Shown here piece after piece: positions 77 to 53,393 of a DNA stretch of 64,000 bases (the stretch's first letter is position 1; each line of letters starts with the position of its first letter). The notes under the pieces are model-generated. The model saw nothing but the letters and a program-made list of their open reading frames with translations. It was not told the origin of the DNA and ran no database searches. Origin of the DNA: an uncultured Candidatus Binatia bacterium. GTDB lineage: Bacteria > Desulfobacterota > Binatia > Bin18. The position numbers and the translations under genes were made by a program. The stretch is taken from assembly GCA_965232605.1 (NCBI GenBank), contig CBDDQA010000006.1:318556-382555 (forward strand), given 5' to 3'.

Positions 77-1093
77 CTAGTGTATGTGCGGCACGATGTG
101 CGAGGTAAAAAGATCGAGCGATCTTTGGCTTTCCTCCAGACTCAGTGAGCCCCAGGCGAACGAACCGACGAAATAATTGATCCCACTCTCCGAGACCAAT
201 TGCTGGATTTGATCCCGGACTTTGTCGACCGAGCCGACCAGGATCGTTTCTCCCGCGAGGCAGGCGTCCCAGGCGAAAAAATTGTCGTAGGCGTGATCAT
301 TGTGCTGATGCCAGAGCTGCATGATTGATTTGTACCAATCATCGTACGCCGGCTTCGCCACCGCAAAGGCTTGTTCGTCGGTCTCCGCCACATAGATTTG
401 GCGCATTGCGCCCAGTTTCAGCGTGTCGGTGTCGCCATTGCCGCCGTCAGCGGCGACTGCTCGATATCGAGCCAGGAGATTCGTGATGAGCGACGGTGGA
501 CCAAGGGTCATGAAGTGCATGCCCTCACGCGCGGCAAATTCGACCCCGGCTTCACTGAACGATGGATACCAGAGCGGTGGATACGGGTCCTGGAACGGTT
601 TGAGCGTCATCGGCACATCGCGAAACTCGAAATGTTTCCCGGCGTAATTCAGGACATCGTTGCACATCCCCTGACGGAATATCTCGAGGACTTCGGTGAA
701 AATTTCCCGGGTCTCTTCCGGATCGACACTGTAGGTCGCGATTTCGTACGGTGACACGCCACGGCTGATGCCGAGTTCCATGCGCCCGTTCGAAAGGTGG
801 TCCAGCATGCAGACTTCCTCTATGAGGCGCAGTGGATGATACATTGGTAATAAATACGCCATAGGGCTGAAGCGGATATGCTTGGTCCTCTGCGCGAGCG
901 CCGCGAAGAACACCGATGGAGAGGGCGCCATACCGAGCGGAGTCGAATGGTGTTCCGCCAGATGATAGCCGTAAAAATTGGCCTTGTCCGCCGATTCGAT
1001 TAGTTTGAGACGCGACTCGTACAGATCACCGACCGAATTCGAGCCGCGATCAACCCAGTCGAACATCCCGAATTCGATTTTTGCTGACATCAC
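77..1093 (-). CDS. LLM class flavin-dependent oxidoreductase (luciferase-like monooxygenase)
   Basis: 338 aa ORF with LLM motifs: LAEHHSTP, PSPSVFFAALAQRT, HPLRLIEEVCMLDHLSNGRMELGISRG. Confidence 0.9.
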   Translation of the reverse strand: MMSAKIEFGMFDWVDRGSNSVGDLYESRLKLIESADKANFYGYHLAEHHSTPLGMAPSPSVFFAALAQRTKHIRFSPMAYLLPMYHPLRLIEEVCMLDHLSNGRMELGISRGVSPYEIATYSVDPEETREIFTEVLEIFRQGMCNDVLNYAGKHFEFRDVPMTLKPFQDPYPPLWYPSFSEAGVEFAAREGMHFMTLGPPSLITNLLARYRAVAADGGNGDTDTLKLGAMRQIYVAETDEQAFAVAKPAYDDWYKSIMQLWHQHNDHAYDNFFAWDACLAGETILVGSVDKVRDQIQQLVSESGINYFVGSFAWGSLSLEESQRSLDLFTSHIVPHIH

Positions 1094-7189: not shown

Positions 7190-8455
7190 ATGGGGCTTCA
7201 TACCATCGAGAACAACACTGTAGGGGTTAATTCGTCGGCCTATGTGCCTTCTCTCCAACTCACCGTCGGACAGCCGGCACCCATCGCGGCGAACGGCGGT
7301 TTGTCCTATATGTCGTTCGATCAGGACGGGGATGCGGGAACCGCGGCGGCGATGGAGGCGGCGATCCGCCAGGTTGCCGAGGGCGAAGGGCAAGCGGTCA
7401 TCGACATGATCGAGAACGCCCCTCCCGGCCCGATCGAGACCAGGTGGGGTCTTGGGTTTCGGAGCTACGACGAGTGCCTGGACTATATTCGGGCGAACAA
7501 CATCCAAGCTCCCGAAGGCGGCGTCGCACTGCCGCTACGCTACACGGTCTACGAGCAGCCGTCCTACTCGGTCGTCTCGTCCAACGCCATCTGGCGGGAC
7601 CCGGCGCGCGCGGATGTAGCCAAAATGTTTCGCCAAGAAGAGCAGGAGATCGGGCGGAGAGGTCTCTATTTTCCGCAAATCCTGCGCGACGCGCGACGGA
7701 TGGAAGAGTACTATCCCGGTCTCTCGCCCACGAGCCCTGAGTGCATGGACAAACTCGGCGTCTCGCTCGCCCACTGCGAATCGAAATGCCAGAACTTCTA
7801 CGATGCCGCCGAGGTCGAGCGCGTATTCTACCCGGAGATCGAGAAACTCCTGCTCGATTTCTTCCCCGGTGCGACTGATGCGCTCGTGTACAACCACGAC
7901 GTGTTTGACAAGGACTACAAGGGCACCGTCAAGGAAGATCAGGACAACAAGGACCCGGGGGTCAACACCTTCTACGCCAACATCGTCCACAACGACCTGA
8001 ATGACAACAGTGGCCGGGTACGCTGCCGTGAGCTGCTGACCAAGAACCTGCGCAACTTCGGGCGCACCCAGCACTACACCGAGGCCGAGGCCGACGCGAA
8101 GATGGCGCGGCGGTTCATGTCGATCAACCTGGCCAAGCCGATGGAGACCGTGGGCCAGCACCCCTTCGTGCTGTGCGCCTGGCCGTCTTTCGCCGACCAG
8201 CCGTACATCACCAACTACCGCATCTATGACGACCGCGTGGGCGAGACGACCCGCTTCACCTACCGTCCCGAGCACGAGTGGTACTGGCTTCCGCAGCAGA
8301 CCTCGACCGAAGTGTCGATGCTCAAGTGCTATGACTCGGTGACGGACGGCTCGGTGTCACGCTGGTCGTTCCACTCGGCCTGCATTGACCCGACTGCACC
8401 CAAGGACGCCCCGTGCCGCAAGAACGTCGTCGTGCGATCCTATATCTTCTTCTAA
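7190..8455 (+). CDS. CmcJ/NvfI-family oxidoreductase with long N-terminal extension (copy 1)
   Basis: YPEIEKLL...VHND...INLAKP...PFVLC...WYWLPQQTSTEVSMLKCYDS...FHSACIDP...RKNVVVRS; GGAGG RBS. Confidence 0.8.
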   Translation: MGLHTIENNTVGVNSSAYVPSLQLTVGQPAPIAANGGLSYMSFDQDGDAGTAAAMEAAIRQVAEGEGQAVIDMIENAPPGPIETRWGLGFRSYDECLDYIRANNIQAPEGGVALPLRYTVYEQPSYSVVSSNAIWRDPARADVAKMFRQEEQEIGRRGLYFPQILRDARRMEEYYPGLSPTSPECMDKLGVSLAHCESKCQNFYDAAEVERVFYPEIEKLLLDFFPGATDALVYNHDVFDKDYKGTVKEDQDNKDPGVNTFYANIVHNDLNDNSGRVRCRELLTKNLRNFGRTQHYTEAEADAKMARRFMSINLAKPMETVGQHPFVLCAWPSFADQPYITNYRIYDDRVGETTRFTYRPEHEWYWLPQQTSTEVSMLKCYDSVTDGSVSRWSFHSACIDPTAPKDAPCRKNVVVRSYIFF

Positions 8456-8618
8456 GAAGACAACCCGACGTAGCGCTCTCCTCGCTGCGTCGGGGAGAGC
8501 AGGGACGTAGCAATCTTTTACCCGGCGGGTGAGGGCCGGTTGCCAACGTGCAGCCCCTACTTGCTCGCGCTGACAGATTTCCCGGCTCGAGGTATTCACC
8601 GCATCTTAGAGGGACAAA

Positions 8619-15041: not shown

Positions 15042-15292
15042 CCTTCAGCTTTCCAGCCTCCCCGAGATCGCTTCGGGCAGAGAGTATCAGCAAAGCTGAG
15101 AAAGGGGAATTTTCTGAGCCTGAAGAAACTGGCAACGTCCCTCCTTTTTCCTAACGGCACCGATGCACGTGGGATAGTCCTTGACCCCCAATGCCTTCTG
15201 TTTTAGAAGCCATCTGGTTCAAAAATTAAGGCCGGTGATCTGGGAATTCTGGTGGTTAGGGCTTGGTTTCCACTCTGAGTTAGGAGCAACAC

Positions 15293-16330
15293 ATGAAAAC
15301 ATCCATCATGGTCGGCGGAGCGACGTATACCGATACGCAGAGCATGGTTGAGCTTGTCCAACACGCCGAGCGTGTTGGTGTCGATCATGTCTGGTCGGCC
15401 GAGGGGTGGAGCCAGGATGCGGCAACATCCCTTGCCTATCTCGCTGGCCAGACTGAGCGCATCATCCTCGGCACCGGTATTATGCAGATCAGTGCCCGTG
15501 CACCGTCGATGCTGGCGATGACAGCCCTGTCCTTACACGATCTCTCCGGGGGACGCTTCATCTTGGGCTTGGGAACAAGCGGCCCCCAAGTCGTGGAAGG
15601 GTTGCAGGGCGTCCCATTTCACGCGCCGCTTACCCGACTGAAAGAGACCATCGATATTATCCGCATGGCCTTTCGAGGTGAGAAGCTCCGCTATGAAGGC
15701 AAGTTCCATACCCTGCCGCGCCCGGGTGGTGAGGGCAAGGCGCTCCGGCTTGACCATAAGCCCGTGGACATCCCCATCTTTCTGGCAACCCTGGCACCCA
15801 AGGCGCTTGAATATACGGGCGCAGCGGCAGATGGTTGGCTAGGTACCTCATTTTCGCCTGAGTGTCCCGAAGCCCATCTGGCGTATATTCGTAAAGGGGC
15901 AGAAGCAGCCGGACGGAAACTCAGCGACATTTCCCTGCATGCTGGGTGTGTGGTTGCGCTTGGCGACAATGTCGAAGAGCTCATCAACATGCGCAAGCCA
16001 TCTGTCGCCTTTAGTATGGGCGCTATGGGCTCGGCCACAACGAATTTTTACAATGCAGCCTTCCAACGCGCAGGGTTCGAAGACGATGCCAAGGCTATTC
16101 AACAACTATGGCGTAAGGGAAAACGCAAAGAAGCCGCCGAGCGCGTTCCGGACGCTATGGTGACGCAGTTCGGGGCTGTCGGGACCCCAGACATGATTCG
16201 CAAACGCTTTCAAAAATACAAAGACGTGGGAATTGACGGACTCACACTCCGCATTGAAGCCGCGGATCATGCGAAACGCATGGCAGATCTCGAACAGGTT
16301 ATGGATGTGGTTGGCTCGATTGAAAAGTGA
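15293..16330 (+). CDS. LLM class oxidoreductase, F420-dependent type
   Basis: WSAEGWSQDAATSLAYLAGQTERIILGTGIMQISARAP...SGGRFILGLGTSGPQVVEGLQG; AGGAG RBS. Confidence 0.9.
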   Translation: MKTSIMVGGATYTDTQSMVELVQHAERVGVDHVWSAEGWSQDAATSLAYLAGQTERIILGTGIMQISARAPSMLAMTALSLHDLSGGRFILGLGTSGPQVVEGLQGVPFHAPLTRLKETIDIIRMAFRGEKLRYEGKFHTLPRPGGEGKALRLDHKPVDIPIFLATLAPKALEYTGAAADGWLGTSFSPECPEAHLAYIRKGAEAAGRKLSDISLHAGCVVALGDNVEELINMRKPSVAFSMGAMGSATTNFYNAAFQRAGFEDDAKAIQQLWRKGKRKEAAERVPDAMVTQFGAVGTPDMIRKRFQKYKDVGIDGLTLRIEAADHAKRMADLEQVMDVVGSIEK

Positions 16331-16414
16331 ACTGATAACCCCTTTTCCTGAGATGGGACCTTTTATTATCGCGGAAGAATTGTAGACCGGCTATATCTGT
16401 TCAAAGGAGCAAAG

Positions 16415-17575
16415 ATGCACGACAACGACCAAGCCATGCGCGAGTTTGCCAAGACCTTAGCGCTGCCAGAATTTGAAGAAACCGCTTTCACGAAACCACC
16501 ACCGCTGCGAGAGGCGCACGTGGCGATCGTGACCAGCGCCGCGCTCCACCGAATCGGCAGCCCCAAGTGGAAGGTTGAGGATTTCCACTTTGAGACCTTG
16601 CCGAATGACGCCCGCGATCTGAAGCTCGGCCACCTGAGCCCGAACTTTGACCGAGCTGGCTTTGCCGCTGACATGAACGTCGTCTATCCGGTCGACCGCC
16701 TGCAGGAACTCTCCGATCAGGGGGTGATCGGCAGCGTCGCTCATCACCACTACGCCTTCGCCGGCAACCAACCCGAAGGGCTATCCGCGCTGCGCTTGGA
16801 TACTGGTCCGGCCTGCGCTCAAAAGATGCGTGAGGATGGCGTGGATGTTGTCCTGCTCACTCCGGTTTGACCGCTGTGTCCGCGTACCGTGTGTACGCTG
16901 GCCCACATCTTCGAGGCGGCTGGCCTGTCAACGGTCGTGATCTCGCCGATGCGTGATGTTGCCGAACGCATGCGTCCACCACGCGTGCTGTATGCAGAAT
17001 TTCCATTAGGGCTGCCTCTCGGCAAGCCCCGCGACGCGGCCTATCAGCACCGGGTGCTCGAAGCGGCCTTTGCCCTGCTGGAGCGGCCGAGTGGACCGGT
17101 TCTCGTAGACTTCCCGGAGACGATCCAAAGCAGGGGCGGAGAGCCCTTAGCGTGTCCGCTTCCGCCTCGTTATGATCCGAACCTGCACCCAGCCATTGAC
17201 GAAGCACAAGCGTTACGCGCCGCTTACGACCGCGCCGTAGCGAAAACTGGGCGGACCAGTGTCGGCCGGGTGATCAATGCGAATCAGATTCCTGCCGCAC
17301 TCGAAAAGTTCGTACGTATCGCGGAAGGGGAAGCCTGGGATCAGGTTGGGCTCGAGGAGACGACGATGCAGGTCGTGCACGATATCCGGGCCTACTACGA
17401 AGAGCTGGCCTGCGAACTGGTAGCCGACGAGCCCATTCCGGCGTGGAGCGCTGAGCGTTGGTTCTACGACAAAACCGAGGCCGGTCAGGTGTTGCTGACG
17501 GCCCGCCGTACGCTGAAGGAGAGTGGGGCGGACCGTCCAATTTGGTTTTTCATGGCCCCGGGCTCACGCCAGTAA
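16415..17575 (+). CDS. Selenoprotein of the GrdB/PrdB (glycine/proline reductase selenoprotein B) family, 386 aa, Sec at UGA 16868-16870
   Basis: ORFs 16415..16870 and 16889..17575 are in the same frame, separated only by TGA plus 6 sense codons. Joined, they read VLLTPV-U-PLCPRTVCTLAHIFEAAGLSTVV...RPPRVLYAEFPLGLPLGKP, i.e. the UxxC motif. The N-terminal half has DMNVVYPVDRLQEL..GVIGSVA. Confidence 0.85.
16880..16901 (+). promoter_or_regulatory. Candidate bacterial SECIS hairpin
   Basis: Stem GCGTAC (16882-87) / GTACGC (16893-98), loop CGTGT with G as 2nd loop base 19 nt after UGA, extended by CC/GG with a bulged T. Confidence 0.65.
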
Positions 17576-17630
17576 AGCCGGTCGTAGTTGGACATCGGAT
17601 AAAGATTCTTTACAGCGAAAGGAGAGGCAT

Positions 17631-18473
17631 ATGAAGCTGAGTGTGAACTTGCGGAATTGGGGTCCGCATTCGACCGCTGACCTCATGCTCGAATGTGCCC
17701 ATGCGGCCGATGAGTCCGGCCTGGATACGCTCTGGATTAACGAGCATATTGCGATCCCCCCGAATCTCGAAATGCCAGGCGGCTTCCCTGATTTCTCACA
17801 AGGACGGGTTCTCGATCCGTTTGCGACGCTCGCCTTCCTGGCCTCGGCGACACAACGGATCGGCCTCGGTACGGCCGTCATCCTCCTCCCCTACCGTCCC
17901 CCGCTGCCAACGGCAAAACTCGTCGCAACCGTCCATGAACTGTCGGGCGAGCGTTTGCGTTTGGGCGTAGGCGTGGGCTGGATGAAAGAGGAATTTCAGG
18001 CCCTCGGGGTCGACTACCGTCGGCGCGGGGCAATGACGAACGACACCTTGGCCTTTATCCGCCAGTGTTTTGATGGGGACGATATAACTGAAGCGAATGG
18101 GCAACCCTTTTTATTTCGGCCTCGCCCCGCCTGCCCCCCAATTTATGTTGGGGGTGCACCACCGCATAGCCTTGAACGCACGGTAAAATACGGTCACGGC
18201 TGGATTCCAGCTGGTGTCGAGGCGGAAGCCCTCAAGCCCGATATTGAAAAGCTGCAACAGATGGCCCGGGAGGCGGGCCGCGCGGCGCTTGAAGTGGTTG
18301 CCATGAAAACCTTGCCTATCGACGATCCACCAAAGGCGATCGACTACGCGAAAGGCTTTGCAGAGGTAGGCGTGGCCCATCTTGTCCATACCCAGGGGTA
18401 CGAGAGTGCGGCTGCATATCGACAGAACATCGCTATTCTCGAAGAAAGAATTCGACCCGCTTTAGCCGACTAA
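17631..18473 (+). CDS. LLM class oxidoreductase, F420-dependent type (Rv2161c-like)
   Basis: GGAGAGG RBS then MKLSVNLRNWG; WINEHIAIP, LDPFATLAFLASATQRIGLGTAV, RLRLGVGVGWMKEEF. Confidence 0.9.
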   Translation: MKLSVNLRNWGPHSTADLMLECAHAADESGLDTLWINEHIAIPPNLEMPGGFPDFSQGRVLDPFATLAFLASATQRIGLGTAVILLPYRPPLPTAKLVATVHELSGERLRLGVGVGWMKEEFQALGVDYRRRGAMTNDTLAFIRQCFDGDDITEANGQPFLFRPRPACPPIYVGGAPPHSLERTVKYGHGWIPAGVEAEALKPDIEKLQQMAREAGRAALEVVAMKTLPIDDPPKAIDYAKGFAEVGVAHLVHTQGYESAAAYRQNIAILEERIRPALAD

Positions 18474-19982: not shown

Positions 19983-21644
19983 ATGACGAACACGACTCAA
20001 CAGCCACACAGAAACGGATCGCTTGAATACTGTGACGCCGTCATCATCGGAGCGGGCGTTGGCGGCATGTACGCCTTACACCACCTGCGCGAAATGGGCC
20101 TGTCAGTGCGCGTGTACGACGGCGCCGGCGGTATCGGCGGAACCTGGTGGTGGAACCGCTACCCCGGTGCACGGGTCGATGGTCCGGGTAGTCCTTTCTA
20201 CTGCTACACCTTCTCGGAAGAGCTGGTGCGGGAGTGGGACTGGGCCGAGACCCAGCCAAGCCAAGAGCAGGTACTGGACTACCTTGAGCACGTCGCCGAC
20301 CGGCTCGACCTGCGCCGCGACATCCAACTTGAGACCTGGATACGCGACGCCCGTTATGACGAAGCGGTCCAGCGCTGGACCGTTGAGACCAGCGGTGGCG
20401 AGCGTGTCTCGGCTCAGTTTTTGATCTGCGCAGTCGGCACCCTCTCGGCGGCCCACAAACCCGACTTCCCCGGACTCGACGATTTTACCGGTGAGTGCTA
20501 CCACACCGGCCGCTGGCCGCAGGAACCTGTTTCTTTTGAGGGCAAACGCGTTGGCGTGATCGGGACTGGCTCCTCGGGGGTCCAGGCAGTTCCTGTCATC
20601 GCTCGCGAGGCCGCCCATCTGACGGTGTTCCAGCGCACACCGCAATACAGCATCCCGGCCCGGAACCGTCCCCTCGAGCCTGAGTTAATGCAGTACGCCC
20701 GCGAAAACTGGGACGAAGTCCGGGCGAAAATGAACGCCCATCCCGTCGGCATGCCGTTCGAGACCACCTCGCGCTTGGGCGCCGAGGACACCCCCGAACA
20801 ACGCCAGGCGCTCTACGAGGATCTGTGGCAGAAGGGCAGCTTCAACCTCCTTTTCGGCAGCTATGCCGACCTCCTGACCAATAAAGAAACCAACCGCACG
20901 CTGGCCGATTTTATACGCGGCAAGATTCGCGAGTGCGTGAAGGACCCCGAGATTGCCGAGAAACTGATGCCGGACTACTATCTGGGCACCAAGCGCCAGA
21001 TCCTCGATAATGGCTACTACGAAACCTTCAATCGCGACAACGTCACTTTAGTAGACTTACGCGAAGACCCAATTCAGACGGTCACTGCAACAGGTGTACG
21101 GACTGAGACCGGCGACCATCCGCTCGATATGATCGTGATGGCAACGGGCTTCGACGCCATCAGCGGCACTATGCTGCGCCTCAACCCCAAGGGGCGGGGC
21201 GGCGTCGACCTCAAGGAGAAGTGGAGCAGTCGCTTCGATAACTATCTTGGTATGGCGATTGCCGACTTTCCCAATCTGTTTATGATCCATGGCCCAGGCT
21301 CACCCTCAGTGCTCTATAACATGCCGCTCGGTGCCGAGCGCGAGACGGAGTGGATCGGCAACTGCGTGCAATATCTACGCGCACGGGGTCTGGGTGCCAT
21401 CGAGGCGACGCCGGACGCCGAGAAAGACTGGGACAAAGAGGTCAACGAACTCGCCAACGAGACGCTCTACCCCCTCACTGACTCCTGGTACACAGGCGCC
21501 AACATCCCAGGCAAGCCCCGTCAGTTCTGCGTCCACCTGGGTGGCCCGCTGTACTTTCAGCGCATCTCTGAGGCTGCCGCCAAGGGCTACGAGGGGTTCG
21601 TGTTTGAGGAGGAGAACAACGTGGACGTCTCCGCCGCGTCCTGA
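19983..21644 (+). CDS. Baeyer-Villiger monooxygenase (cyclohexanone/phenylacetone monooxygenase family)
   Basis: GAGVGG, GGTWWWNRYPGARVD, fingerprint FTGECYHTGRWP, GTGSSGVQ, FQRTP. Confidence 0.95.
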   Translation: MTNTTQQPHRNGSLEYCDAVIIGAGVGGMYALHHLREMGLSVRVYDGAGGIGGTWWWNRYPGARVDGPGSPFYCYTFSEELVREWDWAETQPSQEQVLDYLEHVADRLDLRRDIQLETWIRDARYDEAVQRWTVETSGGERVSAQFLICAVGTLSAAHKPDFPGLDDFTGECYHTGRWPQEPVSFEGKRVGVIGTGSSGVQAVPVIAREAAHLTVFQRTPQYSIPARNRPLEPELMQYARENWDEVRAKMNAHPVGMPFETTSRLGAEDTPEQRQALYEDLWQKGSFNLLFGSYADLLTNKETNRTLADFIRGKIRECVKDPEIAEKLMPDYYLGTKRQILDNGYYETFNRDNVTLVDLREDPIQTVTATGVRTETGDHPLDMIVMATGFDAISGTMLRLNPKGRGGVDLKEKWSSRFDNYLGMAIADFPNLFMIHGPGSPSVLYNMPLGAERETEWIGNCVQYLRARGLGAIEATPDAEKDWDKEVNELANETLYPLTDSWYTGANIPGKPRQFCVHLGGPLYFQRISEAAAKGYEGFVFEEENNVDVSAAS

Positions 21645-25661: not shown

Positions 25662-25744
25662 CAGCGATGAGCGCGTCGGCAAACGCCATACCGGAAGCCC
25701 CGGCTCCGACAATAAGACAGTCCGTCTCGACCACGCTCGTGATC
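25662..25744 (-). pseudogene. 5' remnant of an FAD/NAD(P)-dependent oxidoreductase paralogous to 28632..30047
   Basis: Reads ITSVVETDCLIVGAGASGMAFADALIA and then breaks; near-identical to 29963-30046. Confidence 0.8.
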
Positions 25745-26349: not shown

Positions 26350-27048
26350 TTACTCCCTTTCGGTTTCGCCTGCCCGTACGGCCGCTTGCCGCCTCAGAGA
26401 AGGCGGGCCCGTCGATAACCGCGCTTCATCCGTGGGCACGAAAGCGCCGCCGATTTTATCCAGCAGAATCTGTGCGTTCATTTCGATGCCTTTGCCGCCC
26501 GCAGCTTTCATCGCGGGAAAGTGTTCGAGCAAATTCTCCGCAGCGCCCCGGTAAACGTGCGATGGGTCGCCAGGCCAGGGCGGTAATGCCGCAATTTGTT
26601 CTGCATTGAGGTCCTTCAGGAAATGCCGCGCCTGCGGCTCCATCCGGACAAGGTTCGTCAGGCCTGCAAATTCTTTGTACGCGGCCACCTGTGACACGAG
26701 AATCCTTTTCTCGTAGAACGGATGGTCACCGAACAGCACCGTCCAGCACGCTTTGCAATAGAAACGGGTGGTATCAGCCGACTCATAATTCATGAATGCG
26801 CCCAGTTTCTCTTCGCCCGTCATGATGCAAAAGTCGTTCGGCAGCCAGCAGCAGTCCGCACACAGATTGTGTGGATATTCCGGGCCGCCGCGCTTCGTCG
26901 CATACCACAGGGCCGAGAGGCAATCGTGGCAACAACATTCGTGTCGGAAAAGCTCTTTGTTTGCGGGGAAGTCGATACGAACGGAACCGCATTTGCACCG
27001 AATAGTCGCCATGGTTTTTCTCGTGGGTTGGCCTTTCGAATCTGGCAA
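26350..27048 (-). CDS. Cys-rich GFA/DUF6151-like protein
   Basis: IRCKCG...ECCCHDC...RFYCKACWT pattern; start may be MATIRC near 27012. Confidence 0.6.
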   Translation of the reverse strand: MPDSKGQPTRKTMATIRCKCGSVRIDFPANKELFRHECCCHDCLSALWYATKRGGPEYPHNLCADCCWLPNDFCIMTGEEKLGAFMNYESADTTRFYCKACWTVLFGDHPFYEKRILVSQVAAYKEFAGLTNLVRMEPQARHFLKDLNAEQIAALPPWPGDPSHVYRGAAENLLEHFPAMKAAGGKGIEMNAQILLDKIGGAFVPTDEARLSTGPPSLRRQAAVRAGETERE

Positions 27049-27118
27049 ACCGACCCCTAACTACAATTTTACTGCGAGTCAATGTTTCTCCGTCCGTAAA
27101 CATTGTGGAAAGTCAGGC

Positions 27119-27280: not shown

Positions 27281-28621
27281 TTACCCACACACGTTTTGAT
27301 TGAGATGGTCGCGGAGTGTGTCGCCGGTGTATTCGCGCCGGTGCCGCCCGCGCTTCTGCAAGATGGGTACGACCTCGTCAACAAATTCTTTGAAGTTGTT
27401 CGGCATGACTGTCGGTGTGATGTTAAAGCCGTCGCCGCCGGTTTCATCGAGGATGGCTTCCATCTGGTCGGCGACCTGTTCAGGCGTCCCGACAAGCTGC
27501 GGGCAGCCAATCGTTGCGCCGTAGATTTTCCCGACTTCGCGCATGGTCAGTTTGTCTTTGCCCAAGTCGCCGGCCTTATACATCTTGGTAAAAATATCCA
27601 ATAAGCCCTGGATGCCTTCGACCTCGATGTCTTCAATCGGCTCATCAAGGTCGTACTGCGACAAATCGTGGTTGGAGTGCCCGGAAAGGAGGGCGAGGCC
27701 GCCTTCATACGGGACCAATTCATTAAACTCCCGCTGCCTGCGCTTCGCCTCCGCTTCGGTCCCACCCAGGATAGTCTGAATGCCCCAAATGTATTTGAGG
27801 CTGGATGGCTCTCTTCCGTTTTTCTTTAACCTTCCCCGCATATCGTCGGCAAAAGCCTTCAATGCCCGCGTGGTGAGCTGCACACCAAATGCCGCCTCCG
27901 CATGTTTGGCGCAAAAGTCACGCCCCGCGTCTGACGCGCCCGCCTGAAAAAGTACTGGGTACCCCTGCGGCGAGGGTTCAACCGCCGAAATACCGGGGCA
28001 TGAAAACCACTTGCCTTTGTGATTGATCGGGTGGACTTTGCTGGCATCAACAAACACCCCCGTCTTCTTGTCCGCTACGACCGAGCCTGGCTCCCAGCTG
28101 TTCCACAGTTTGTGGCAGACCTCCATGTATTCGTCCGCACGCTTATAGCGCTCGGTATGCGGGACCATTTTTTCCAGTCCAAGGTTCACGGCCTCGGCCA
28201 CGTGGGCGGAGGTGACGATGTTCCAGCCAATCCGCCCTTTGGTCAGATGATCAAGCGTGCTCAATTTGCGCACCGCCATATACGGCTGGTAGTAGGTCAG
28301 GGAAAGGGTCACCGCGTAACCGAGTCTCTCGGTCACCGCGGCCAGCATCGGAATGACCAAGGTCGGATCGTGCATGGGAAACTGGATGGCATGGGTGAGC
28401 GCTTCGTCCATCCGATTCCGGTAATTCCCGAATGCCGCTAAGGTATCGGCAAAAAAGATGGCATCGAACTTGCCGCGTTCCAGCGTCCGCGCCACGTCCT
28501 GCCAGATTTCAGGTTTGGCAAACGAGGCGGCGACCTGGCTGTCGGGATGCAGCCAGGAGCCCACGGAATGATTCATCGGACCAAACATCACAAAACCATT
28601 CAGATGCATCAATTTTTTCAC
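27281..28621 (-). CDS. NtaA/SnaA/DszA-family FMN-dependent monooxygenase (LLM)
   Basis: LERGKFDAIFFADTL, STLDHLTKGRIGWNIVTS, SPQGYPVLFQAGASDAGRDFCAKHAE, VVPILQKRG. Confidence 0.93.
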   Translation of the reverse strand: MKKLMHLNGFVMFGPMNHSVGSWLHPDSQVAASFAKPEIWQDVARTLERGKFDAIFFADTLAAFGNYRNRMDEALTHAIQFPMHDPTLVIPMLAAVTERLGYAVTLSLTYYQPYMAVRKLSTLDHLTKGRIGWNIVTSAHVAEAVNLGLEKMVPHTERYKRADEYMEVCHKLWNSWEPGSVVADKKTGVFVDASKVHPINHKGKWFSCPGISAVEPSPQGYPVLFQAGASDAGRDFCAKHAEAAFGVQLTTRALKAFADDMRGRLKKNGREPSSLKYIWGIQTILGGTEAEAKRRQREFNELVPYEGGLALLSGHSNHDLSQYDLDEPIEDIEVEGIQGLLDIFTKMYKAGDLGKDKLTMREVGKIYGATIGCPQLVGTPEQVADQMEAILDETGGDGFNITPTVMPNNFKEFVDEVVPILQKRGRHRREYTGDTLRDHLNQNVCG

Positions 28622-28631: not shown

Positions 28632-30047
28632 CTATCCTATCATTGACGACGCTTCGGCCAGCAGCCGTTCGGCATTTTTTAACGCCGGTTCGGCGTTGGC
28701 CTGCCAGCGATCAAGGGCCGTCTTCATGCGCGGTTCACTCAGGTGATTTTCCATGCCGCGGGTGAGATTCAGGCGCGAGCTTGCCTGCCACGCCGTGATG
28801 TCCGGCTCGGTCGCATGCAGCGCGGAAGTATTGAGCATACCGTGCATAAACCGGACCCAATCGAGCGGAACGTCGACCTGGGCGACGGGTGGGCAGAGCC
28901 GGTTCTTCTCGGCGTCGTCGCGGCCGGTGGACTCGATAAACCCGAGCATGGCCGCGTAATACGTCTGGACCGCGCCAATGAGGGATTGAATCACGATGCG
29001 GCCCGGCTCGAAAATCGGCCGGACGGGTCGCTTGTGGTAGCCGCAGGCCGTGCAATCCACATGCACGTGGCCGCGCTCAGTCGGAATCTCCCCTTTCTCC
29101 AGGATGATGCGGTCGGCGCCCAGACTTTGCACGCGACCCAGGCGGACCACGTTTTCGATCTGCATCAACGCTTCGCGTTCGGCGGCGTTCAGGATGGCGC
29201 CCCGAAACATGGTCGGCCTGATCCGCGGCTCGAAGCGTTGCAGTTGGCCGCACGCTTCGAGCCGAGGCCAAAGCGCATCTGCCGTCTCGGCCTGGGCGAG
29301 GGCCTCGACGCCAAGCGATAATCCGTTGACGGTCTCGGTGACCAGATCGAGCGGCTGGAGCGTCAGGCGGTCCAGCAACCAGGCTTCGCGGGGTCTAATC
29401 CACCTGATCCTGTCGGGCTCTTCACCGTTGTCGAGCAGCCAGTTGCAGGCATCCATAGCGGTCTTGCCTGCTCCAATGATGGTATAGCCGGTCGGACGCT
29501 CAGCCAGATTGGTCAGCTCACCGAGGGGAATGAATGTGACATCCGGGTCAACCGCAAACGACGGCGTATGCGTTGCCGGGACCGTCACCTCGAGATAGGT
29601 CGTATCTACAATCTTGCGGCGCACGCGTACCGTCGTACCGGCGCCGGTCACGCGTGAGGTGAACGCGTGCGCGTTTGCCCAGTCCCCGACGTAGTCACAC
29701 ATACCGAAGAAGCGCACCTGTCCCGACGGCAGCAGCACCTCGTCGAGCACCCGCTGGTAATAGGCACATATCTCCGCGGCCGTCGAGCGCTCGTAGAATC
29801 CGGCGTTCGGGCCGGTTTGGTCGATCGAATCCGTGCCCAGCATCCGCGAGTTGACCCCGTAGCAGGCCGAGGCGTGGTGAATACGCACGAACGGGTACGC
29901 ATCGTTCCAATGGCCACCCGGACAGTGGCGCCGCTCGACCATCACGACGTCAGCATCACATTCAGCGATGAGCGCGTCGGCAAACGCCATACCGGAAGCC
30001 CCGGCTCCGACGATAAGATAGTCCGTCTCAATCTCGCTCAGGATCAC
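28632..30047 (-). CDS. FAD/NAD(P)-dependent oxidoreductase
   Basis: DYLIVGAGASGMAFADAL, GGHWNDAYPFVRIH, IIGAGKTAMDAC. Confidence 0.85.
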   Translation of the reverse strand: MILSEIETDYLIVGAGASGMAFADALIAECDADVVMVERRHCPGGHWNDAYPFVRIHHASACYGVNSRMLGTDSIDQTGPNAGFYERSTAAEICAYYQRVLDEVLLPSGQVRFFGMCDYVGDWANAHAFTSRVTGAGTTVRVRRKIVDTTYLEVTVPATHTPSFAVDPDVTFIPLGELTNLAERPTGYTIIGAGKTAMDACNWLLDNGEEPDRIRWIRPREAWLLDRLTLQPLDLVTETVNGLSLGVEALAQAETADALWPRLEACGQLQRFEPRIRPTMFRGAILNAAEREALMQIENVVRLGRVQSLGADRIILEKGEIPTERGHVHVDCTACGYHKRPVRPIFEPGRIVIQSLIGAVQTYYAAMLGFIESTGRDDAEKNRLCPPVAQVDVPLDWVRFMHGMLNTSALHATEPDITAWQASSRLNLTRGMENHLSEPRMKTALDRWQANAEPALKNAERLLAEASSMIG

Positions 30048-30063: not shown

Positions 30064-31335
30064 TCAGGCTTCGGTGAGCGTCTCCGCCGCCCTCACCCGC
30101 CGCGCTCGAGGCTCGACTTCGGCCGCCTGCAGGCGTTCTGCCTGCCACGCTTTCTTCAACATTTGCCGAAATTTTATGACCGCCACGTCAGTCTGCGAGA
30201 GGTGTTCGCGGCGCCAGTCCGACAGCATCCCCTGCCCCATGACCATCGCCCGATCCGGTCCGATGTTGCAGTGGTAAATATTGTTCGGCAGTCCCCATTT
30301 GCGCCAATGTACCGACTGCATGATCCACGCGCGGGCACGATCCTTGAATTCGCCGTGGAAGGTCGCGCACGTGAACACGCGGACCTTGCCTTCGTCGATC
30401 GGGACGGACCAGAAGATCGCGCCGGCCGGCCAGATCGGCGGGTGCGGCGCAAAATAAATATAGCCCGGGACATGCATGTCCCAACCCGATGCGTAGTGCG
30501 AGCCGCGGTGATCCGGCCCGGTCGTCTCCATGCCGACTTCCAAGCCGCCGCACTCAAGCTCGAGTCCGTAATGTTTTCCGTACCGCGCCTGGTCGAGAAA
30601 CTGCGAACAGCGCGCGTGGGCGAAACAGGCATGCGCCGCATCAGCGTTGTTGTCGATTGAATTCAGATAGTTGCAGTCCCAGTCCCAATGGATGAACCAC
30701 GGCCAAGAGCCCGACATTGCCTGGGCGACATGCGGAATGTTCTCGTCGAGGTCGGGCACCTTGTCGGGATCTCCCATGTAAGCCCAGATCACATGATGTC
30801 TTTCCAGCGCCGGATAGGCGCGTGTTCGGGTCTTGCGCGGTAATGGGCTGTCCGGACCTTCCGCGAGCGCTGCCACGCATTGGCCGCTGCCGTCGAACGT
30901 CCAACCGTGGTACGGACAACTGACCGTGCCGGGTGCATGCAGGTTGACCCAACCCTGCGACAAGCGCGCCAGGCGATGCGGGCAGACGTCGCTTAACGCG
31001 CGAGGCGAGCCGTCCTCGTCGCGAAATACGACGAGGTCCTCACCCAGTAAACGGGCCGATTGCAGCTGATTTTCTCGCAGGTCCTTCGCCGGCATCACGG
31101 GATACCAGAAATTGCGCAGGCCCTTGTAGGGGACATCATCCGGGATGCCTTTGGGCAGTTCTTGCAGATGCGGCGGGCATCGATCTGCCCACCGCTTCCA
31201 ACGCCTCAGATCGGAATGCGGCGCCAGCGAAGAAAGCGCCGCCCGAAACGTACTTTTTGATTCACACCGTATGAGTTCGCGTCGATTTCTCTCGACGTTA
31301 TGCGCGCGCCACCAGTCCCCGATCGTTGCTAACAT
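30064..31335 (-). CDS. Rieske non-heme iron oxygenase alpha subunit (CarAa/OMO/LigX-like alpha3 type)
   Basis: Rieske CPHR...CPYHGW; mononuclear Fe DNNADAAHACFAH; NFWYPV; EHLSQTDVAV. Confidence 0.9.
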   Translation of the reverse strand: MLATIGDWWRAHNVERNRRELIRCESKSTFRAALSSLAPHSDLRRWKRWADRCPPHLQELPKGIPDDVPYKGLRNFWYPVMPAKDLRENQLQSARLLGEDLVVFRDEDGSPRALSDVCPHRLARLSQGWVNLHAPGTVSCPYHGWTFDGSGQCVAALAEGPDSPLPRKTRTRAYPALERHHVIWAYMGDPDKVPDLDENIPHVAQAMSGSWPWFIHWDWDCNYLNSIDNNADAAHACFAHARCSQFLDQARYGKHYGLELECGGLEVGMETTGPDHRGSHYASGWDMHVPGYIYFAPHPPIWPAGAIFWSVPIDEGKVRVFTCATFHGEFKDRARAWIMQSVHWRKWGLPNNIYHCNIGPDRAMVMGQGMLSDWRREHLSQTDVAVIKFRQMLKKAWQAERLQAAEVEPRARRVRAAETLTEA

Positions 31336-32156: not shown

Positions 32157-33473
32157 GTGAATAAAATGATGCACCTGACGGGTTTTATGGTTCATTGCCC
32201 GGCACCCCACACTCTGATGTCGTGGATATATCCACGAGAGAAGACGCGGCATTACTGGTATGAGCCTGAGTATTGGCAGACCATTGCCCGCACCCTGGAG
32301 CGGGGTAAGTTTGATATGTTCTTTTTTGCCGACCAGCTAGCCGCCTATGATGCCTACAAAGGCGGCATGGAGCCCACTCTCCGTTATGCTCTTCAGTTTC
32401 CCATCCACGACCCGGTTGTTTTGGTCCCCGCCTTGTCGACAGTAACCGAAAAACTCGGGTTTGCCATTACCATGTCCGCCACTTATTACGCTCCCTACAT
32501 GTTGGTTCGGAAGCTCTCTACGCTAGACCATCTGACAAAAGGCCGCATCGGCTGGAACATTGTCACCTCCTTTCACGGAAACGAAGCTCGGAACTTGGGC
32601 CTGGAGATGGTCATTCCTCATGATGAGCGGTATGAGCGAGCCGAAGAGTACATGGAGGTGTGTTATCAGCTGTGGAACAGTTGGGACTCGGACGCAGTGG
32701 TAATGGACATGGAGAGGGGAGTGTTTGCTGATCCAACTAAGGTCCGGAAGATAGACTTTAAGGGGAGATGGTTTCAGTGTACGGGACCGTCGAGTGTCAT
32801 GCCTTCACCGCAAGGCCATCCAGTGCTCATCCAGGCCGGCGCATCGGGCCGAGGCCGGGAGTTTGCTGCCAAGCACGCGGAGTGTATTTTCGGGCTGCAA
32901 CGCACCCCCCAAGCGATGCGTGCGTTTGCCGACGACATGCGGGCTCGGGCTAAAAAGTACGGCCGCAAACCTGAAGACATCAAAATTCTCTGGGGGGTGA
33001 TTCCTATTGTGGGGAAGACAGAAGAGGAGGCCAAGGCAAAAAAGCGGGCCAGTCTTGAACGCATTCCGATTGAGGCCGGGCTAGCACTGATGTCGGGTCA
33101 TTTCAATTACGATCTGTCACAGCTGGATTTGGACCAGCCCTTTGAGAACCTTGAAGTGCCAGGTATCCAGGGCATGGTAGAGATCTTCACTCAGCAGCCC
33201 GGGAAAAAACCAACGTTGCGGGAGGTAGCCACCATCTATGGAGCAGGGATAGCTATGCCGCATCTTATAGGGACGTCGGAGCAGGTGGCCGACCAGCTCG
33301 CCTACTTGCACAAGGAAGGTGGGGGCGATGGGTTCCAATTCAGCCCGGCCTACTATGGGCCGGATTACTTTGAAGAGATAGTAGACTTGCTCATTCCGGT
33401 GTTGCAGAAGCGGGGATTGTTTCGGAAGGAGTATGAAGGCGGAATCCTGCGGGAGCATTTGCAGCAGTATTAG
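32157..33473 (+). CDS. NtaA/SnaA/DszA-family FMN-dependent monooxygenase (LLM), paralog of 27281..28621
   Basis: LERGKFDMFFFAD, KLSTLDHLTKGRIGWNIVTS, SPQGHPVLIQAGASGRGREFAAKHAE. Confidence 0.93.
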   Translation: MNKMMHLTGFMVHCPAPHTLMSWIYPREKTRHYWYEPEYWQTIARTLERGKFDMFFFADQLAAYDAYKGGMEPTLRYALQFPIHDPVVLVPALSTVTEKLGFAITMSATYYAPYMLVRKLSTLDHLTKGRIGWNIVTSFHGNEARNLGLEMVIPHDERYERAEEYMEVCYQLWNSWDSDAVVMDMERGVFADPTKVRKIDFKGRWFQCTGPSSVMPSPQGHPVLIQAGASGRGREFAAKHAECIFGLQRTPQAMRAFADDMRARAKKYGRKPEDIKILWGVIPIVGKTEEEAKAKKRASLERIPIEAGLALMSGHFNYDLSQLDLDQPFENLEVPGIQGMVEIFTQQPGKKPTLREVATIYGAGIAMPHLIGTSEQVADQLAYLHKEGGGDGFQFSPAYYGPDYFEEIVDLLIPVLQKRGLFRKEYEGGILREHLQQY

Positions 33474-46580: not shown

Positions 46581-46633
46581 GTCAGTAACTCCTCGGCAGG
46601 CCCATCCGTTCGCCCAGGAAATTCTTCACCATC
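46581..46633 (-). pseudogene. 3'-terminal remnant of an acyl-CoA dehydrogenase paralog/allele
   Basis: Encodes MVKNFLGERMGLPRSY*; 50/53 identical to 48376-48428, and all 3 differences are synonymous. Confidence 0.8.
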
Positions 46634-46871: not shown

Positions 46872-46937
46872 CGAAGCGCGACGAGGCGCCTCTTGGCTGC
46901 GGGGCAGACGCAGCTTCTGCTGCGTCTGCTGTTCTTC

Positions 46938-48360: not shown

Positions 48361-48376
48361 CCACTCGCACCAATGG

Positions 48377-49531: not shown

Positions 49532-49584
49532 GCTCAAGCCCTTCGTTCGGTTGACAGTCCCGTCGCCGTCCCCTGCGACCGGTC

Positions 49585-50418: not shown

Positions 50419-50543
50419 TTTTCGCCTCCTTCGGTGGCGCTCCCATTCGGACCGGCCAGCAGGGCGGAGCCGTGTGTTGTTCCTAGCTCCAAATCCCCTG
50501 CCCTTCAAGGTTTCCGCATCTCCACCGCCCGCATTGATAAAGG

Positions 50544-50636
50544 AACCCACCCCGCCGCTCACGCGGCACCCCTCCCAAGAGGGGATAAAAAAGCTCCCCT
50601 CCTCGGAGGGGTGGCCCGAAGGGCCGGGGTGGGTTT
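50544..50636. repeat. Nested palindromic intergenic repeat
   Basis: AACCCACCCC...GGGGTGGGTT enclosing CCCCTCCCAAGAGGGG and CCCCTCCTCGGAGGGG hairpins. Confidence 0.75.
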
Positions 50637-50744
50637 CTTTCATTGGCCTGAACGGCTGGTATCGAAACTACGTTGAGTGGTCCATGGCACCTAGATATCA
50701 GGTGAGAAGGACTCTTACGCTGTTGACCTTCCCCCGGTAAACGC

Positions 50745-53296: not shown

Positions 53297-53393
53297 GCCT
53301 AGCGTGAAACGCTATAGGGCACCCAGCGCCGAATTAGGGCAGGCCCCAAGGGTCGGTAGTGCATTAGTTTGAAAATATAATAAATTATGCAAT

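What the first reader, a model, noticed from the sequence alone, without database searches (positions are those of the whole stretch)
16415..17575. Hidden selenoprotein: in-frame UGA in a UxxC motif with a SECIS-like hairpin
Seen: the two ORFs are one reading frame broken only by TGA at 16868, giving ...LTPV-U-PLC..., and a 6-bp stem with a G-containing loop starts 12 nt after the UGA. Known: GrdB and PrdB carry catalytic Sec in UxxC, and bacterial SECIS elements lie just 3' of the UGA. Inferred: a 386-aa selenoprotein that standard gene callers would split into two hypothetical genes.
Basis: partly seen in the sequence, partly recalled or inferred. Interest (0 to 1): 0.8.

Follow-up and report, generated by a model that had tools for sequence, protein, structure and literature searches.

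The report
Selenocysteine gene of marine PrdB-like family
The stop codon in the middle of this gene is almost certainly read as selenocysteine, so the two "hypothetical" ORFs are one 386-residue selenoprotein; the call is correct, but the family was already catalogued in ocean metagenomes in 2005 and 2008, and its real function is still unknown.

Summary
Window 16415-17575 (+) is one reading frame broken only by TGA at 16868-16870 (LTPV-U-PLC). A 6-bp hairpin follows, GCGUAC-CGUGU-GUACGC, starting 11 nt after the TGA.

Across the window and 89 related loci, 84 have TGA and 6 have TGT (Cys) at this column. These loci come from Ca. Binatia, Gammaproteobacteria, Myxococcota, Actinomycetota and Chloroflexota. 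Of 21 full-length protein homologues, 20 have Cys there. dN/dS is 0.05-0.23 on both sides of the TGA.

The hairpin is constrained at the RNA level:
- 99.1% of cells are paired across 68 distinct Sec forms.
- Two pairs show compensatory changes (U-A to C-G, A-U to G-C).
- Third codon positions inside the hairpin are nearly frozen, while flanking ones vary freely.
- The stem is broken in all 6 Cys forms that encode the same peptide.

The family is not new. The supplements of the Sargasso Sea (2005) and GOS (2008) selenoproteome papers list the same protein as "Proline reductase PrdB" (62% identity, E 1e-152). That label is doubtful. The score is far below the PrdB equivalog cut-off, no PrdA-type partner or any conserved neighbour was found, and there is a family-specific 164-residue C-terminal domain in an aerobic catabolic context.

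Sec machinery in this genome could not be checked. Verdict: a correct call, a new (Binatia) member of a known selenoprotein family.

The parts
16415..17575 (+). Complete selenoprotein gene: 386 codons including Sec152, plus the TAA stop
   Evidence: One frame with a single internal TGA. Full-length Cys homologues of 380-400 aa align end to end at 44-62% identity. dN/dS is 0.05-0.23 on both sides of the TGA.
16404..16409 (+). Shine-Dalgarno-like AAGGAG, 5 nt before the ATG at 16415
   Evidence: Read directly from the sequence. No function test was done.
16868..16870 (+). UGA codon 152, read as selenocysteine (inferred)
   Evidence: TGA in 84 and TGT (Cys) in 6 of 90 orthologous or paralogous loci from five phyla. 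Cys in 20 of 21 full-length protein homologues.
16877..16879 (+). Cys155 codon, the partner of Sec152 in the U-x-x-C motif
   Evidence: Invariant in 58 full-length homologues and in 74 of 74 Sec forms.
16878..16902 (+). SECIS-type hairpin. Lower pairs are 16878-16879 with 16901-16902. The 6-bp stem is 16882-16887 with 16893-16898. The apical loop is CGUGU at 16888-16892.
   Evidence: 99.1% of cells are paired over 68 distinct Sec forms. Pair 18/28 is U-A in 52 and C-G in 16 with none unpaired, and pair 19/27 is A-U, G-U or G-C. Third-position entropy is 0-0.8 bit inside the hairpin against 1.5-1.9 bit at flanking four-fold degenerate sites. The intact stem is present in 17 of 20 Sec forms and 0 of 6 Cys forms that encode the same PRTVCT peptide.
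16889..16891 (+). GTG (Val159) that ORF finders use as a false start for the C-terminal fragment; it lies in the SECIS loop
   Evidence: the ORF listing. Database proteins P0036, P0042 and others begin here with M. In 5 of 74 Sec forms this codon is GTC or GTT, which are not start codons.
16502..17080 (+). PrdB/GrdB-like core, residues 30-222
   Evidence: TIGR04483 PrdB model positions 26-218 of 238, 118.3 bits. PF07355 GRDB matches residues 9-149 and its model ends 2-3 residues before the Sec.
17081..17572 (+). Family-specific, mostly helical C-terminal domain, residues 223-386, with the DIRxYYEE motif
   Evidence: No Pfam or NCBIfam match. phmmer against 1.84 billion representatives gives only 216 hits at E <= 0.001. 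The listed hits match full-length family members or fragments consistent with them; one 1019-aa hit (P0156) was left unresolved. The domain is helical in the AF2 model of homologue P0001.
17153..17155 (+). Cys247 codon, an invariant cysteine in the linker to the C-terminal domain
   Evidence: Invariant column in 29-sequence and 58-sequence alignments. Its role is inferred only.
15293..16330 (+). Upstream same-strand neighbour, a luciferase-like monooxygenase (not a conserved partner)
   Evidence: PF00296, 251 bits. A neighbour of this type is present in only 12 of 85 loci.
17631..18473 (+). Downstream same-strand neighbour, a luciferase-like monooxygenase (not a conserved partner)
   Evidence: PF00296, 155 bits. 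See the context clustering.

Best explanation
Window 16415-17575 is one gene for a 386-residue selenoprotein. UGA at 16868 is recoded to selenocysteine.

Recoding (inferred by analogy with the E. coli fdhF/SelB mechanism). The hairpin 11 nt downstream (6-bp stem, 5-nt loop with an invariant U flanked by G) acts as a bacterial SECIS. It is bound by SelB-GTP-Sec-tRNA(Sec), which delivers Sec to the ribosome when the UGA is in the A site.

The protein. It has a PrdB/GrdB-type alpha/beta core. Sec152 and Cys155 sit between a beta-strand and the N-terminus of a helix, the geometry of a redox-active CxxC centre. A family-specific helical C-terminal domain follows.

Catalysis (inferred). The selenolate of Sec152 attacks the substrate. 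Cys155 resolves the adduct into a selenenyl-sulfide. A cellular dithiol system then re-reduces that bond.

Identity. The gene belongs to the family catalogued as 'Proline reductase PrdB' in marine metagenomes. It most likely works as a stand-alone reductase in aerobic catabolic gene islands, not as a subunit of a clostridial-type D-proline reductase.

Shown: the single frame, the conserved TGA/Cys column, purifying selection on both halves, RNA-level constraint on the hairpin, and family identity.
Inferred: actual Sec insertion, the catalytic cycle and the substrate.
For: - Frame and TGA.
- TGA in 84 and TGT in 6 of 90 loci, from Binatia, Pseudomonadales/SAR92/Porticoccaceae, Myxococcota, Acidimicrobiia and Dehalococcoidia.
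- Cys at the column in 20 of 21 full-length homologues.
- dN/dS 0.05-0.23 upstream and downstream of the TGA.
- The six codons between the TGA and the false GTG start keep their amino acids (C 74/74, R 74/74), while the four-fold third positions of the Pro and Leu codons vary (1.7 bit).
- Hairpin: 99.1% paired, compensatory U-A/C-G and A-U/G-C, 0 of 500 shuffles reach the observed pairing or covariation score, and slid controls collapse to 4-68% paired.
- Frozen third positions occur only inside the hairpin.
- With the same PRTVCT peptide, Sec forms use CGT/TGT/ACG in 20 of 20, and 17 of 20 keep the full stem. Cys forms use CGC in 6 of 6 and 0 of 6 keep the stem (Fisher p = 3.6e-4).
- Family: PF07355 38 bits (cut-off 22) and PrdB model 118 bits.
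- The same protein is listed as a selenoprotein in the Sargasso and GOS supplements, at 62% identity, E 1e-152. Sec aligns with Sec of a second 'PrdB' subfamily.
- The AF2 model of the 61%-identical Cys homologue has pLDDT 92.5, with the Sec-equivalent Cys157 between strand 150-154 and helix 160-173.
- A relative uses Sec elsewhere: three more W-U-P-[YF]-C Prx-like genes lie on the contig of the 83% orthologue.
Against: - No selA, selB, selD or tRNA-Sec is in the 64-kb window. The rest of the genome could not be searched, so Sec decoding in this organism is inferred.
- The hairpin alone is not thermodynamically unusual (z = +0.79) and is matched by 1.6-12% of random TGA sites.
- No Rfam family matches it.
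- The compensatory C-G pairs are concentrated in Actinomycetota, and the six Cys forms are all marine Gammaproteobacteria or Pseudomonadota MAGs. Both sets may therefore represent few independent events.
- There is no experimental evidence for the protein.
- The proposed catalytic cycle rests on analogy only. No solved structure resembles the model.
Confidence: 0.92

Rival explanations
1. Split gene. The TGA is a true stop, and the two ORFs (151 aa and 228 aa from GTG 16889) are made as separate polypeptides that assemble.
For: The codon at 16889 is GTG or TTG, both possible starts, in 69 of 74 Sec forms. Gene callers make exactly this call.
Against: The 18 nt between the TGA and the GTG encode PLCPRT, which is conserved as protein while its four-fold sites vary. 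This stretch contains the invariant Cys155. Five Sec forms have GTC or GTT there, which are not start codons. No Shine-Dalgarno motif precedes it. The Cys forms are contiguous proteins. The GTG conservation is explained by its position in the SECIS loop.
Confidence: 0.03
2. Pseudogene or sequencing error. The TGA is an accident in this assembly.
For: A single in-frame stop is what a point error would give. The window comes from an uncultured organism.
Against: The same TGA is found in 83 other loci from independent assemblies and five phyla. Both halves are under purifying selection. The identical codon is recorded in reads from 2005 and 2008.
Confidence: 0.01
3. The UGA is read through, but not as Sec. 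It could be decoded by near-cognate Trp or Cys tRNA, or by a non-canonical tRNA, in a genome without the Sec system.
For: Sec machinery was not seen in the window. Cys would be functional at this site, since Cys forms exist.
Against: A conserved hairpin at SECIS distance, lost in Cys forms, has no role in simple read-through. The family is Sec-dominated, 74 TGA to 6 TGT in species-representative genomes. Several other UxxC selenoprotein genes lie on a relative's contig.
Confidence: 0.03
4. Functional rival: the protein is the PrdB subunit of a genuine D-proline reductase (or the GrdB subunit of a glycine/betaine reductase), as the database labels say.
For: The best NCBIfam hit is PrdB over nearly the whole model (positions 26-218 of 238). 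JGI and the literature name the family PrdB. The U-x-x-C motif is shared.
Against: The score of 118 bits is far below the PrdB equivalog cut-off of 300. The GrdB/GrdF/GrdH models score 38-54 bits against cut-offs of 602-800, and the general 'selenoprotein B' subfamily model scores 47 against 65. No PrdA/GrdE/GrdA-type gene was found among the window ORFs that were scanned or in the precomputed Pfam tables of nine related loci. There is no conserved neighbour at all in 85 loci. The protein has 386 residues and an extra 164-residue domain found only in this family. Its neighbours are oxygen-dependent enzymes and acyl-CoA enzymes.
Confidence: 0.07

Closest known systems
Marine 'Proline reductase PrdB' selenoprotein family of the Sargasso Sea (Zhang, Fomenko and Gladyshev 2005, PMC1088965) and GOS (Zhang and Gladyshev 2008, PMC2398784) surveys
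   Same: It is the same protein. Supplementary sequences AACY01802489, JCVI_READ_1715939 and JCVI_READ_2029005 read ...LLTGT-U-P[LM]CPRTVCTLAH...DIRCYYEELACEL. Identity to the window protein is 62%, E 1e-152. They share the UxxC motif and pfam07355, and Sec forms outnumber Cys forms (42:1 and 235:110 in the papers; 74:6 here).
   Different: This copy is from Ca. Binatia and has P-V instead of G-T before the Sec. The papers treat the family as proline reductase, and in the passages I read they do not discuss the C-terminal domain, the missing PrdA or the genomic context.
D-proline reductase subunit PrdB of Clostridium sticklandii / C. difficile (TIGR04483)
   Same: The core is homologous over about 190 residues. 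Sec lies in a U-x-x-C motif inside the region matched by the PrdB model, so the position is probably equivalent.
   Different: From established knowledge, PrdB is about 26 kDa, is encoded next to prdA (the pyruvoyl proprotein) and works in anaerobic Stickland fermentation. Here the protein has 386 residues and an extra domain, has no prdA nearby, sits in an aerobic catabolic context, and scores 118 against a cut-off of 300.
Glycine/sarcosine/betaine reductase protein B (GrdB/GrdF/GrdH, PF07355)
   Same: It passes Pfam's GRDB threshold (38 bits against 22). The Pfam model ends 2-3 residues before the Sec column.
   Different: It lacks the roughly 200-residue N-terminal part of GrdB (models match from position 200-280 onward). 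No grdA/grdE/grdC partners were seen. Scores are far below the equivalog cut-offs.
Bacterial SECIS elements (E. coli fdhF type; bSECISearch consensus)
   Same: A hairpin lies immediately 3' of the UGA, with 17 nt between the UGA and the apical loop, a small loop containing G-U, and an internal loop below the upper stem. The consensus numbers are recalled from memory.
   Different: The upper stem is short (6 bp) and its sequence is family-specific. It matches no Rfam model. Binding by SelB is untested.

Membership tests
Bacterial selenoprotein gene (UGA-Sec with SECIS) | In-frame UGA with protein-coding conservation on both sides | tested here: met
   a single frame, TGA in 84 of 90 loci, dN/dS 0.05-0.23 upstream and downstream.
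Bacterial selenoprotein gene (UGA-Sec with SECIS) | Homologues with Cys at the UGA position | tested here: met
   Cys in 20 of 21 full-length proteins. TGT in 6 of 80 genome loci.
Bacterial selenoprotein gene (UGA-Sec with SECIS) | Hairpin just 3' of the UGA with a G in the apical loop, conserved at the RNA level | tested here: met
   99.1% paired, two pairs with compensatory changes, frozen third positions, and a stem that is broken in Cys forms. The loop has an invariant U (column 23) with G at column 22 and/or 24.
Bacterial selenoprotein gene (UGA-Sec with SECIS) | selA, selB, selC (tRNA-Sec) and selD present in the genome | not testable with these tools
   None in the window and no tRNA-Sec in any fetched locus. 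Whole Binatia chromosomes could not be read. Indirect support: three other UxxC selenoprotein genes on the contig of the 83% orthologue.
Bacterial selenoprotein gene (UGA-Sec with SECIS) | Selenium actually incorporated (75Se labelling or mass spectrometry) | not testable with these tools
   This needs an experiment.
Marine 'PrdB' selenoprotein family (Sargasso/GOS catalogues) | Sequence similarity to catalogued members, including the UxxC Sec motif | tested here: met
   62% identity over 333 residues, E 1e-152, to JCVI_READ_1715939, with Sec aligned.
Pfam PF07355 GRDB superfamily | Score at or above the gathering threshold | tested here: met
   38 bits against 22.
D-proline reductase PrdB (TIGR04483 equivalog) | Score at or above the curated equivalog cut-off | tested here: not met
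   118.3 bits against 300.
D-proline reductase PrdB (TIGR04483 equivalog) | Encoded with the pyruvoyl proprotein PrdA (and PrdC etc.) | tested here: not met
   No such Pfam or NCBIfam hit among the window ORFs scanned or in the gene tables of L001-L009. No neighbour is shared by more than 12 of 85 loci. A distant location in the genome is not excluded.
D-proline reductase PrdB (TIGR04483 equivalog) | Size of about 240 residues with no further domain | tested here: not met
   386 residues. Residues 223-386 form a family-specific domain.
Glycine reductase protein B (GrdB, TIGR01917 / TIGR01918) | Score at or above the cut-off; full-length GrdB architecture | tested here: not met
   TIGR01917 scores 37.7 against 602, and TIGR01918 scores 47.1 against 65.45. 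Only model positions from about 270 to 406 are matched.
Glycine reductase protein B (GrdB, TIGR01917 / TIGR01918) | UxxCxxC motif and grdA/grdE partners | tested here: not met
   The motif here is U-x-x-C-x-x-x-x-C/S/G, and the third position is Ser in 26 of 74 Sec forms. No partner genes were seen.

The most novel reading that the evidence does not exclude
The family labelled 'proline reductase PrdB' in ocean surveys is not a proline reductase. It would be a stand-alone selenoenzyme of aerobic bacteria. Its private C-terminal domain, with invariant Cys247, would replace the pyruvoyl partner. It would carry out a so far undescribed reductive step in the oxidative breakdown of lipid-like or alicyclic compounds. 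This would also extend selenocysteine use to Ca. Binatia, for which I found no report.
Probability: 0.55. Interest if true: 0.55.

Novelty: new member of a known kind. Interest (0 to 1): 0.3.

Why it matters
For annotation, this gene and its many orthologues sit in public databases as two 'hypothetical' fragments. For example, the C-terminal fragment cluster P0036 has 104 member sequences. The comparative signature given here (TGA column, hairpin, codon pattern) allows them to be rejoined.

For biology, the family is one of the most abundant selenoproteins of the surface ocean (third in the Sargasso Sea, 235 Sec sequences in GOS). It keeps Sec over Cys in aerobes at 74 to 6 in representative genomes. 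It still carries a name borrowed from an anaerobic clostridial enzyme that the evidence here does not support. That makes its true substrate a well-posed, testable question. The existence of the selenoprotein itself is not a surprise to a specialist.

Tried and rejected
- Rfam, at gathering thresholds on the whole window and at E <= 10 on 16800-17000, found nothing.
- Thermodynamic significance of the hairpin: z = +0.79, so it was rejected as evidence. The base rate of such hairpins after TGA is 1.6-12%.
- ARAGORN found no tRNA in the window and no tRNA-Sec in any of 89 loci.
- I scanned the window for other in-frame TGA joins with Cys nearby. Only 16868 stands out, and GC3 is too weak a coding signal at 58% G+C.
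- Pfam/NCBIfam scans of about 45 window ORFs for sel genes or PrdA/GrdE/GrdA found none.
- An exact-sequence look-up of the window's C-terminal ORF found nothing on record.
- PDB by sequence: nothing for the single protein. The profile gave only an insignificant glutaredoxin CPYC-motif hit, E 0.74.
- Foldseek of the AF2 model against the PDB: best E 6.6e-3, TM 0.26-0.30 (photocobilin). I treated this as no match.
- The search for a conserved neighbour found none.
- A 1019-aa hit to the C-terminal domain (P0156) has no Pfam domain and was not pursued.
- The promoter/terminator scan found nothing above chance.
- eval_structure energies for Cys-form hairpins were not used, because forced non-canonical pairs make them unreliable. 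Pair counts were used instead.
Full report
**1. The observation**

Window 16415-17575 (+) translates as one frame of 387 codons. The only internal stop is TGA at 16868-16870 (codon 152), in the context VDVVLLTPV-*-PLCPRTVCTLAHI. An AAGGAG lies 5 nt before the ATG.

Mechanical ORF listing splits the frame into 16415-16870 (151 aa) and 16889-17575 (228 aa, from a GTG).

Eleven nucleotides after the TGA begins a perfect 6-bp stem, GCGUAC (16882-16887) paired with GUACGC (16893-16898). The loop is CGUGU. Two further pairs lie below an internal loop.

The hairpin by itself is not remarkable:
- The fold of the 63 nt after the UGA is no more stable than shuffles (z = +0.79).
- 12% of all TGA trinucleotides in the window are followed by some 6-bp hairpin at this distance.
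- 1.6% are followed by one as G+C-rich.

**2. Is the TGA a codon?**

The joined protein passes Pfam's GRDB model (PF07355, 38 bits, cut-off 22). It also matches the NCBIfam PrdB model over positions 26-218 of 238 (118 bits).

A search of 5.8 billion proteins returned two kinds of relatives:
- Full-length proteins of about 380-400 residues at 44-62% identity.
- Closer relatives (65-94% identity) that are all fragments of about 227 residues starting just after the TGA column.

In the alignment, 20 of 21 full-length homologues have Cys at the column and one has Ala.

On the DNA of the close relatives, each fragment is preceded by a 122-152-residue ORF with a GRDB hit. That ORF ends 18 nt before the fragment starts, which is the same geometry as in the window.

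A scan of one genome per species (GTDB) gave 336 confirmed relatives, of which the best 80 were kept. Of those 80, 74 have TGA and 6 have TGT at the column. With the metagenome loci and the window, the totals are 84 TGA and 6 TGT. By their record titles, the carriers are Ca. Binatia, Pseudomonadales (Azotimanducaceae, SAR92, Porticoccaceae, Halieaceae), Myxococcota, Acidimicrobiia and other Actinomycetota, and Dehalococcoidia/Chloroflexota.

The 95-97% identical genes, and 92-97% nucleotide identity over the flanks, place the window in Ca. Binatia.

Nei-Gojobori dN/dS between the window and 13 orthologues is 0.05-0.23 for most informative comparisons, both for the 75 codons before and the 95 codons after the TGA. 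Some close or saturated pairs give no useful value.

The six codons between the TGA and the false GTG start keep their amino acids: Cys155 in 74 of 74, Arg in 74 of 74. The four-fold third positions of the Pro and Leu codons vary (about 1.7 bit).

A sequencing error, a pseudogene or a pair of separate genes cannot produce this pattern.

**3. The hairpin as a SECIS**

On 68 distinct Sec-form sequences, the eight proposed pairs form standard pairs in 99.1% of cells.
- Pair 18/28 is U-A in 52 sequences and C-G in 16, and is never unpaired.
- Pair 19/27 is A-U in 64, G-U in 3 and G-C in 1.
- Pair 17/29 alternates between G-C and G-U.
- No shuffle of 500 reaches the observed pairing or covariation score.
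- Sliding the 3' arm by 1-3 columns drops pairing to 4-68%.

The U-A to C-G change couples a synonymous Arg change (CGT to CGC) with a Thr-to-Val replacement (ACG to GTG). The RNA pairing is therefore kept through a protein change.

Third codon positions within the hairpin and loop (columns 15, 18, 21, 24, 27, 30) have entropies of 0.28, 0.82, 0.41, 0.41, 0.10 and 0.00 bit. Four-fold degenerate third positions immediately outside it have 1.5-1.9 bit.

The cleanest control is the set of sequences that encode the identical peptide PRTVCT:
- The 20 Sec forms use CGT, TGT and ACG without exception, and 17 keep all six pairs.
- The 6 Cys forms use CGC (6 of 6) and GTT (6 of 6), vary the other third positions, and none keeps the stem (Fisher p = 3.6e-4).

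There are caveats. The 16 C-G sequences are mostly Actinomycetota. The six Cys forms are all marine Gammaproteobacteria or Pseudomonadota MAGs. The number of independent events is therefore smaller than the counts.

The loop keeps an invariant U (column 23) with G at column 22 and/or 24. The distance of 17 nt from the UGA to the loop, and the G in the loop, fit the published bacterial SECIS consensus as I recall it. That consensus was not re-checked here.

No Rfam model matches. I expect this for short, gene-specific bacterial SECIS elements.

**4. What could not be shown**

The window has no tRNA gene. None of the roughly 45 ORFs scanned is SelA, SelB or SelD. No fetched locus has a tRNA-Sec. 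Sec decoding in this organism is therefore inferred.

One indirect point supports it. The contig carrying the 83%-identical orthologue (L006) holds three further in-frame TGA genes of the peroxiredoxin-like W-U-P-[YF]-C type.

**5. What the protein is**

The family is already in the literature.
- The Sargasso Sea selenoproteome paper lists 'Proline reductase PrdB' as its third most abundant selenoprotein family, with 42 Sec genes and 1 Cys homologue (PMC1088965).
- The GOS paper lists it with pfam07355, motif UxxC, 235 selenoproteins and 110 Cys homologues (PMC2398784).
- Their supplements contain this very protein: AACY01802489 reads VLLTGTuPMCPRTVCTLAHVF...DIRCYYEELACEL, and JCVI_READ_1715939 and JCVI_READ_2029005 are further members.
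- The window protein is 62% identical to JCVI_READ_1715939 (E 1e-152).
- Its Sec aligns with the Sec of a second, shorter 'PrdB' subfamily from the same supplement.

Binatia, for which I found no selenoprotein report.

**6. Is it a proline (or glycine) reductase?**

The defining features are not met.
- Scores are far below the curated cut-offs: PrdB 118 against 300; GrdB, GrdF and GrdH 38-54 against 602-800; the general selenoprotein-B subfamily model 47 against 65.
- The protein is 386 residues, not about 240.
- Residues 223-386 form a mostly helical domain with no Pfam or NCBIfam model. In 1.84 billion representative proteins it has only 216 relatives at E <= 0.001. The listed hits match full-length members of this family or fragments consistent with them, apart from one unresolved 1019-residue hit.
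- No PrdA/GrdE/GrdA-type gene is in the window or in the gene tables of nine related loci.
- Clustering the flanking ORFs of 85 loci finds no neighbour shared by more than 12 of them.

The neighbours that do recur are luciferase-like monooxygenases, acyl-CoA ligases, enoyl-CoA hydratases, short-chain dehydrogenases, family III CoA-transferases, Baeyer-Villiger monooxygenases, PhyH dioxygenases and TonB-dependent receptors. These are aerobic catabolic islands. Several genomes carry two paralogues.

**7. Structure**

An AlphaFold2 model of the 61%-identical Cys homologue P0001 is confident (pLDDT 92.5, pTM 0.92). It shows an alpha/beta core followed by a helical domain. The Sec-equivalent Cys157 lies between strand 150-154 and helix 160-173, with Cys160 (Cys155 in the window protein) at the start of that helix. 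This is the arrangement of redox-active CxxC centres.

No solved structure resembles the model: the best Foldseek hit has E 6.6e-3 and TM 0.26-0.30, and sequence and profile searches found nothing.

Cys247 in the inter-domain linker is invariant.

**8. Most likely mechanism**

Recoding. A SelB-type factor recognises the hairpin at 16878-16902 and inserts Sec at UGA 16868. This is inferred by analogy, and the cis elements are shown.

Catalysis. Sec152 acts as the nucleophile. Cys155 resolves the adduct into a selenenyl-sulfide, which a dithiol system reduces. This is inferred from the UxxC geometry and from the chemistry known for PrdB/GrdB, which is reductive cleavage of a bond at a carbon next to a carboxyl group.

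The substrate is unknown. I consider D-proline unlikely (about 0.07).

**9. Verdict**

This is a new member of a known selenoprotein family, so it is of modest interest as a discovery. It remains useful as an annotation fix and as a pointer to a long-standing mislabel whose true function is testable.

Noticed in passing
L006:1276-1950, L006:12269-12670, L006:15229-16623: The contig with the 83%-identical orthologue carries three more in-frame TGA genes of the AhpC-TSA/Prx-like type. Their motifs are FYRGAW-U-PYC, HRSAVW-U-PFC and FYRGEW-U-PYC, and the last is fused to a guanylate-cyclase domain. All are split by the gene caller.
   Followed up: partly
window 77-1093, 15293-16330, 17631-18473, 27281-28621, 32157-33473, 42659-43996, 44180-45508, 45571-46533: There are eight luciferase-like monooxygenase paralogues in 64 kb. 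The window also holds a Baeyer-Villiger monooxygenase (19983-21644), a P450 (33841-35052), two Rieske oxygenases (30064-31335, 51785-53104), a PhyH dioxygenase (49585-50643) and three CmcJ/NvfI-family ORFs. This is an oxygenase-rich catabolic region.
   Followed up: partly
window 7231-8460 and 46933-48162; 46581-46633 and 48376-48428: A 1.23-kb inverted duplicate (92.4% identity) encodes a CmcJ/NvfI-family oxidoreductase. The second copy sits in a 1.74-kb segment bracketed by 53-nt direct repeats (94%). One of those repeats is the 3' end of the acyl-CoA dehydrogenase gene 48377-49588(-). It looks like an insertion or duplication scar.
   Followed up: partly
window 25662-25738 and 29963-30039: A 77-nt direct repeat (93.5% identity). 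One copy is intergenic and the other lies in the 5' end of the 471-aa NAD-binding ORF 28632-30047(-).
   Followed up: no
window 53392-63010: A type I restriction-modification operon: hsdM 53392-55518, hsdS 56424-57848 and hsdR 60005-63010. A DarG antitoxin gene (58929-60008; 451 bits, cut-off 250) and an upstream 221-aa ORF (58267-58932, probably DarT) are inserted between hsdS and hsdR.
   Followed up: partly
window 16403-17595 compared with L001, L002, L010-L016: Among Binatia assemblies at 92-97% nucleotide identity, the selenoprotein gene behaves as a 1.19-kb block whose neighbours differ. It is collinear with the window in L010 and L014. In L001, L002, L011, L013, L015 and L016 it is followed by the homologue of window 15275-16386. 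In L002, L011, L013, L015 and L016 it is also preceded by the homologue of window 26360-27113.
   Followed up: no
L020+L021, L029+L046, L035+L037 (same chromosome or contig in each pair): Several gammaproteobacterial genomes carry two Sec-containing paralogues of the family. A Solirubrobacterales contig has two Cys forms seven locus tags apart (P0064, P0067).
   Followed up: no
protein P0089 (Acidimicrobiia MAG): One full-length homologue has Ala instead of Cys/Sec at the catalytic column (PV-A-PMCSRTV). It may be an inactive or differently working form, or an error.
   Followed up: no
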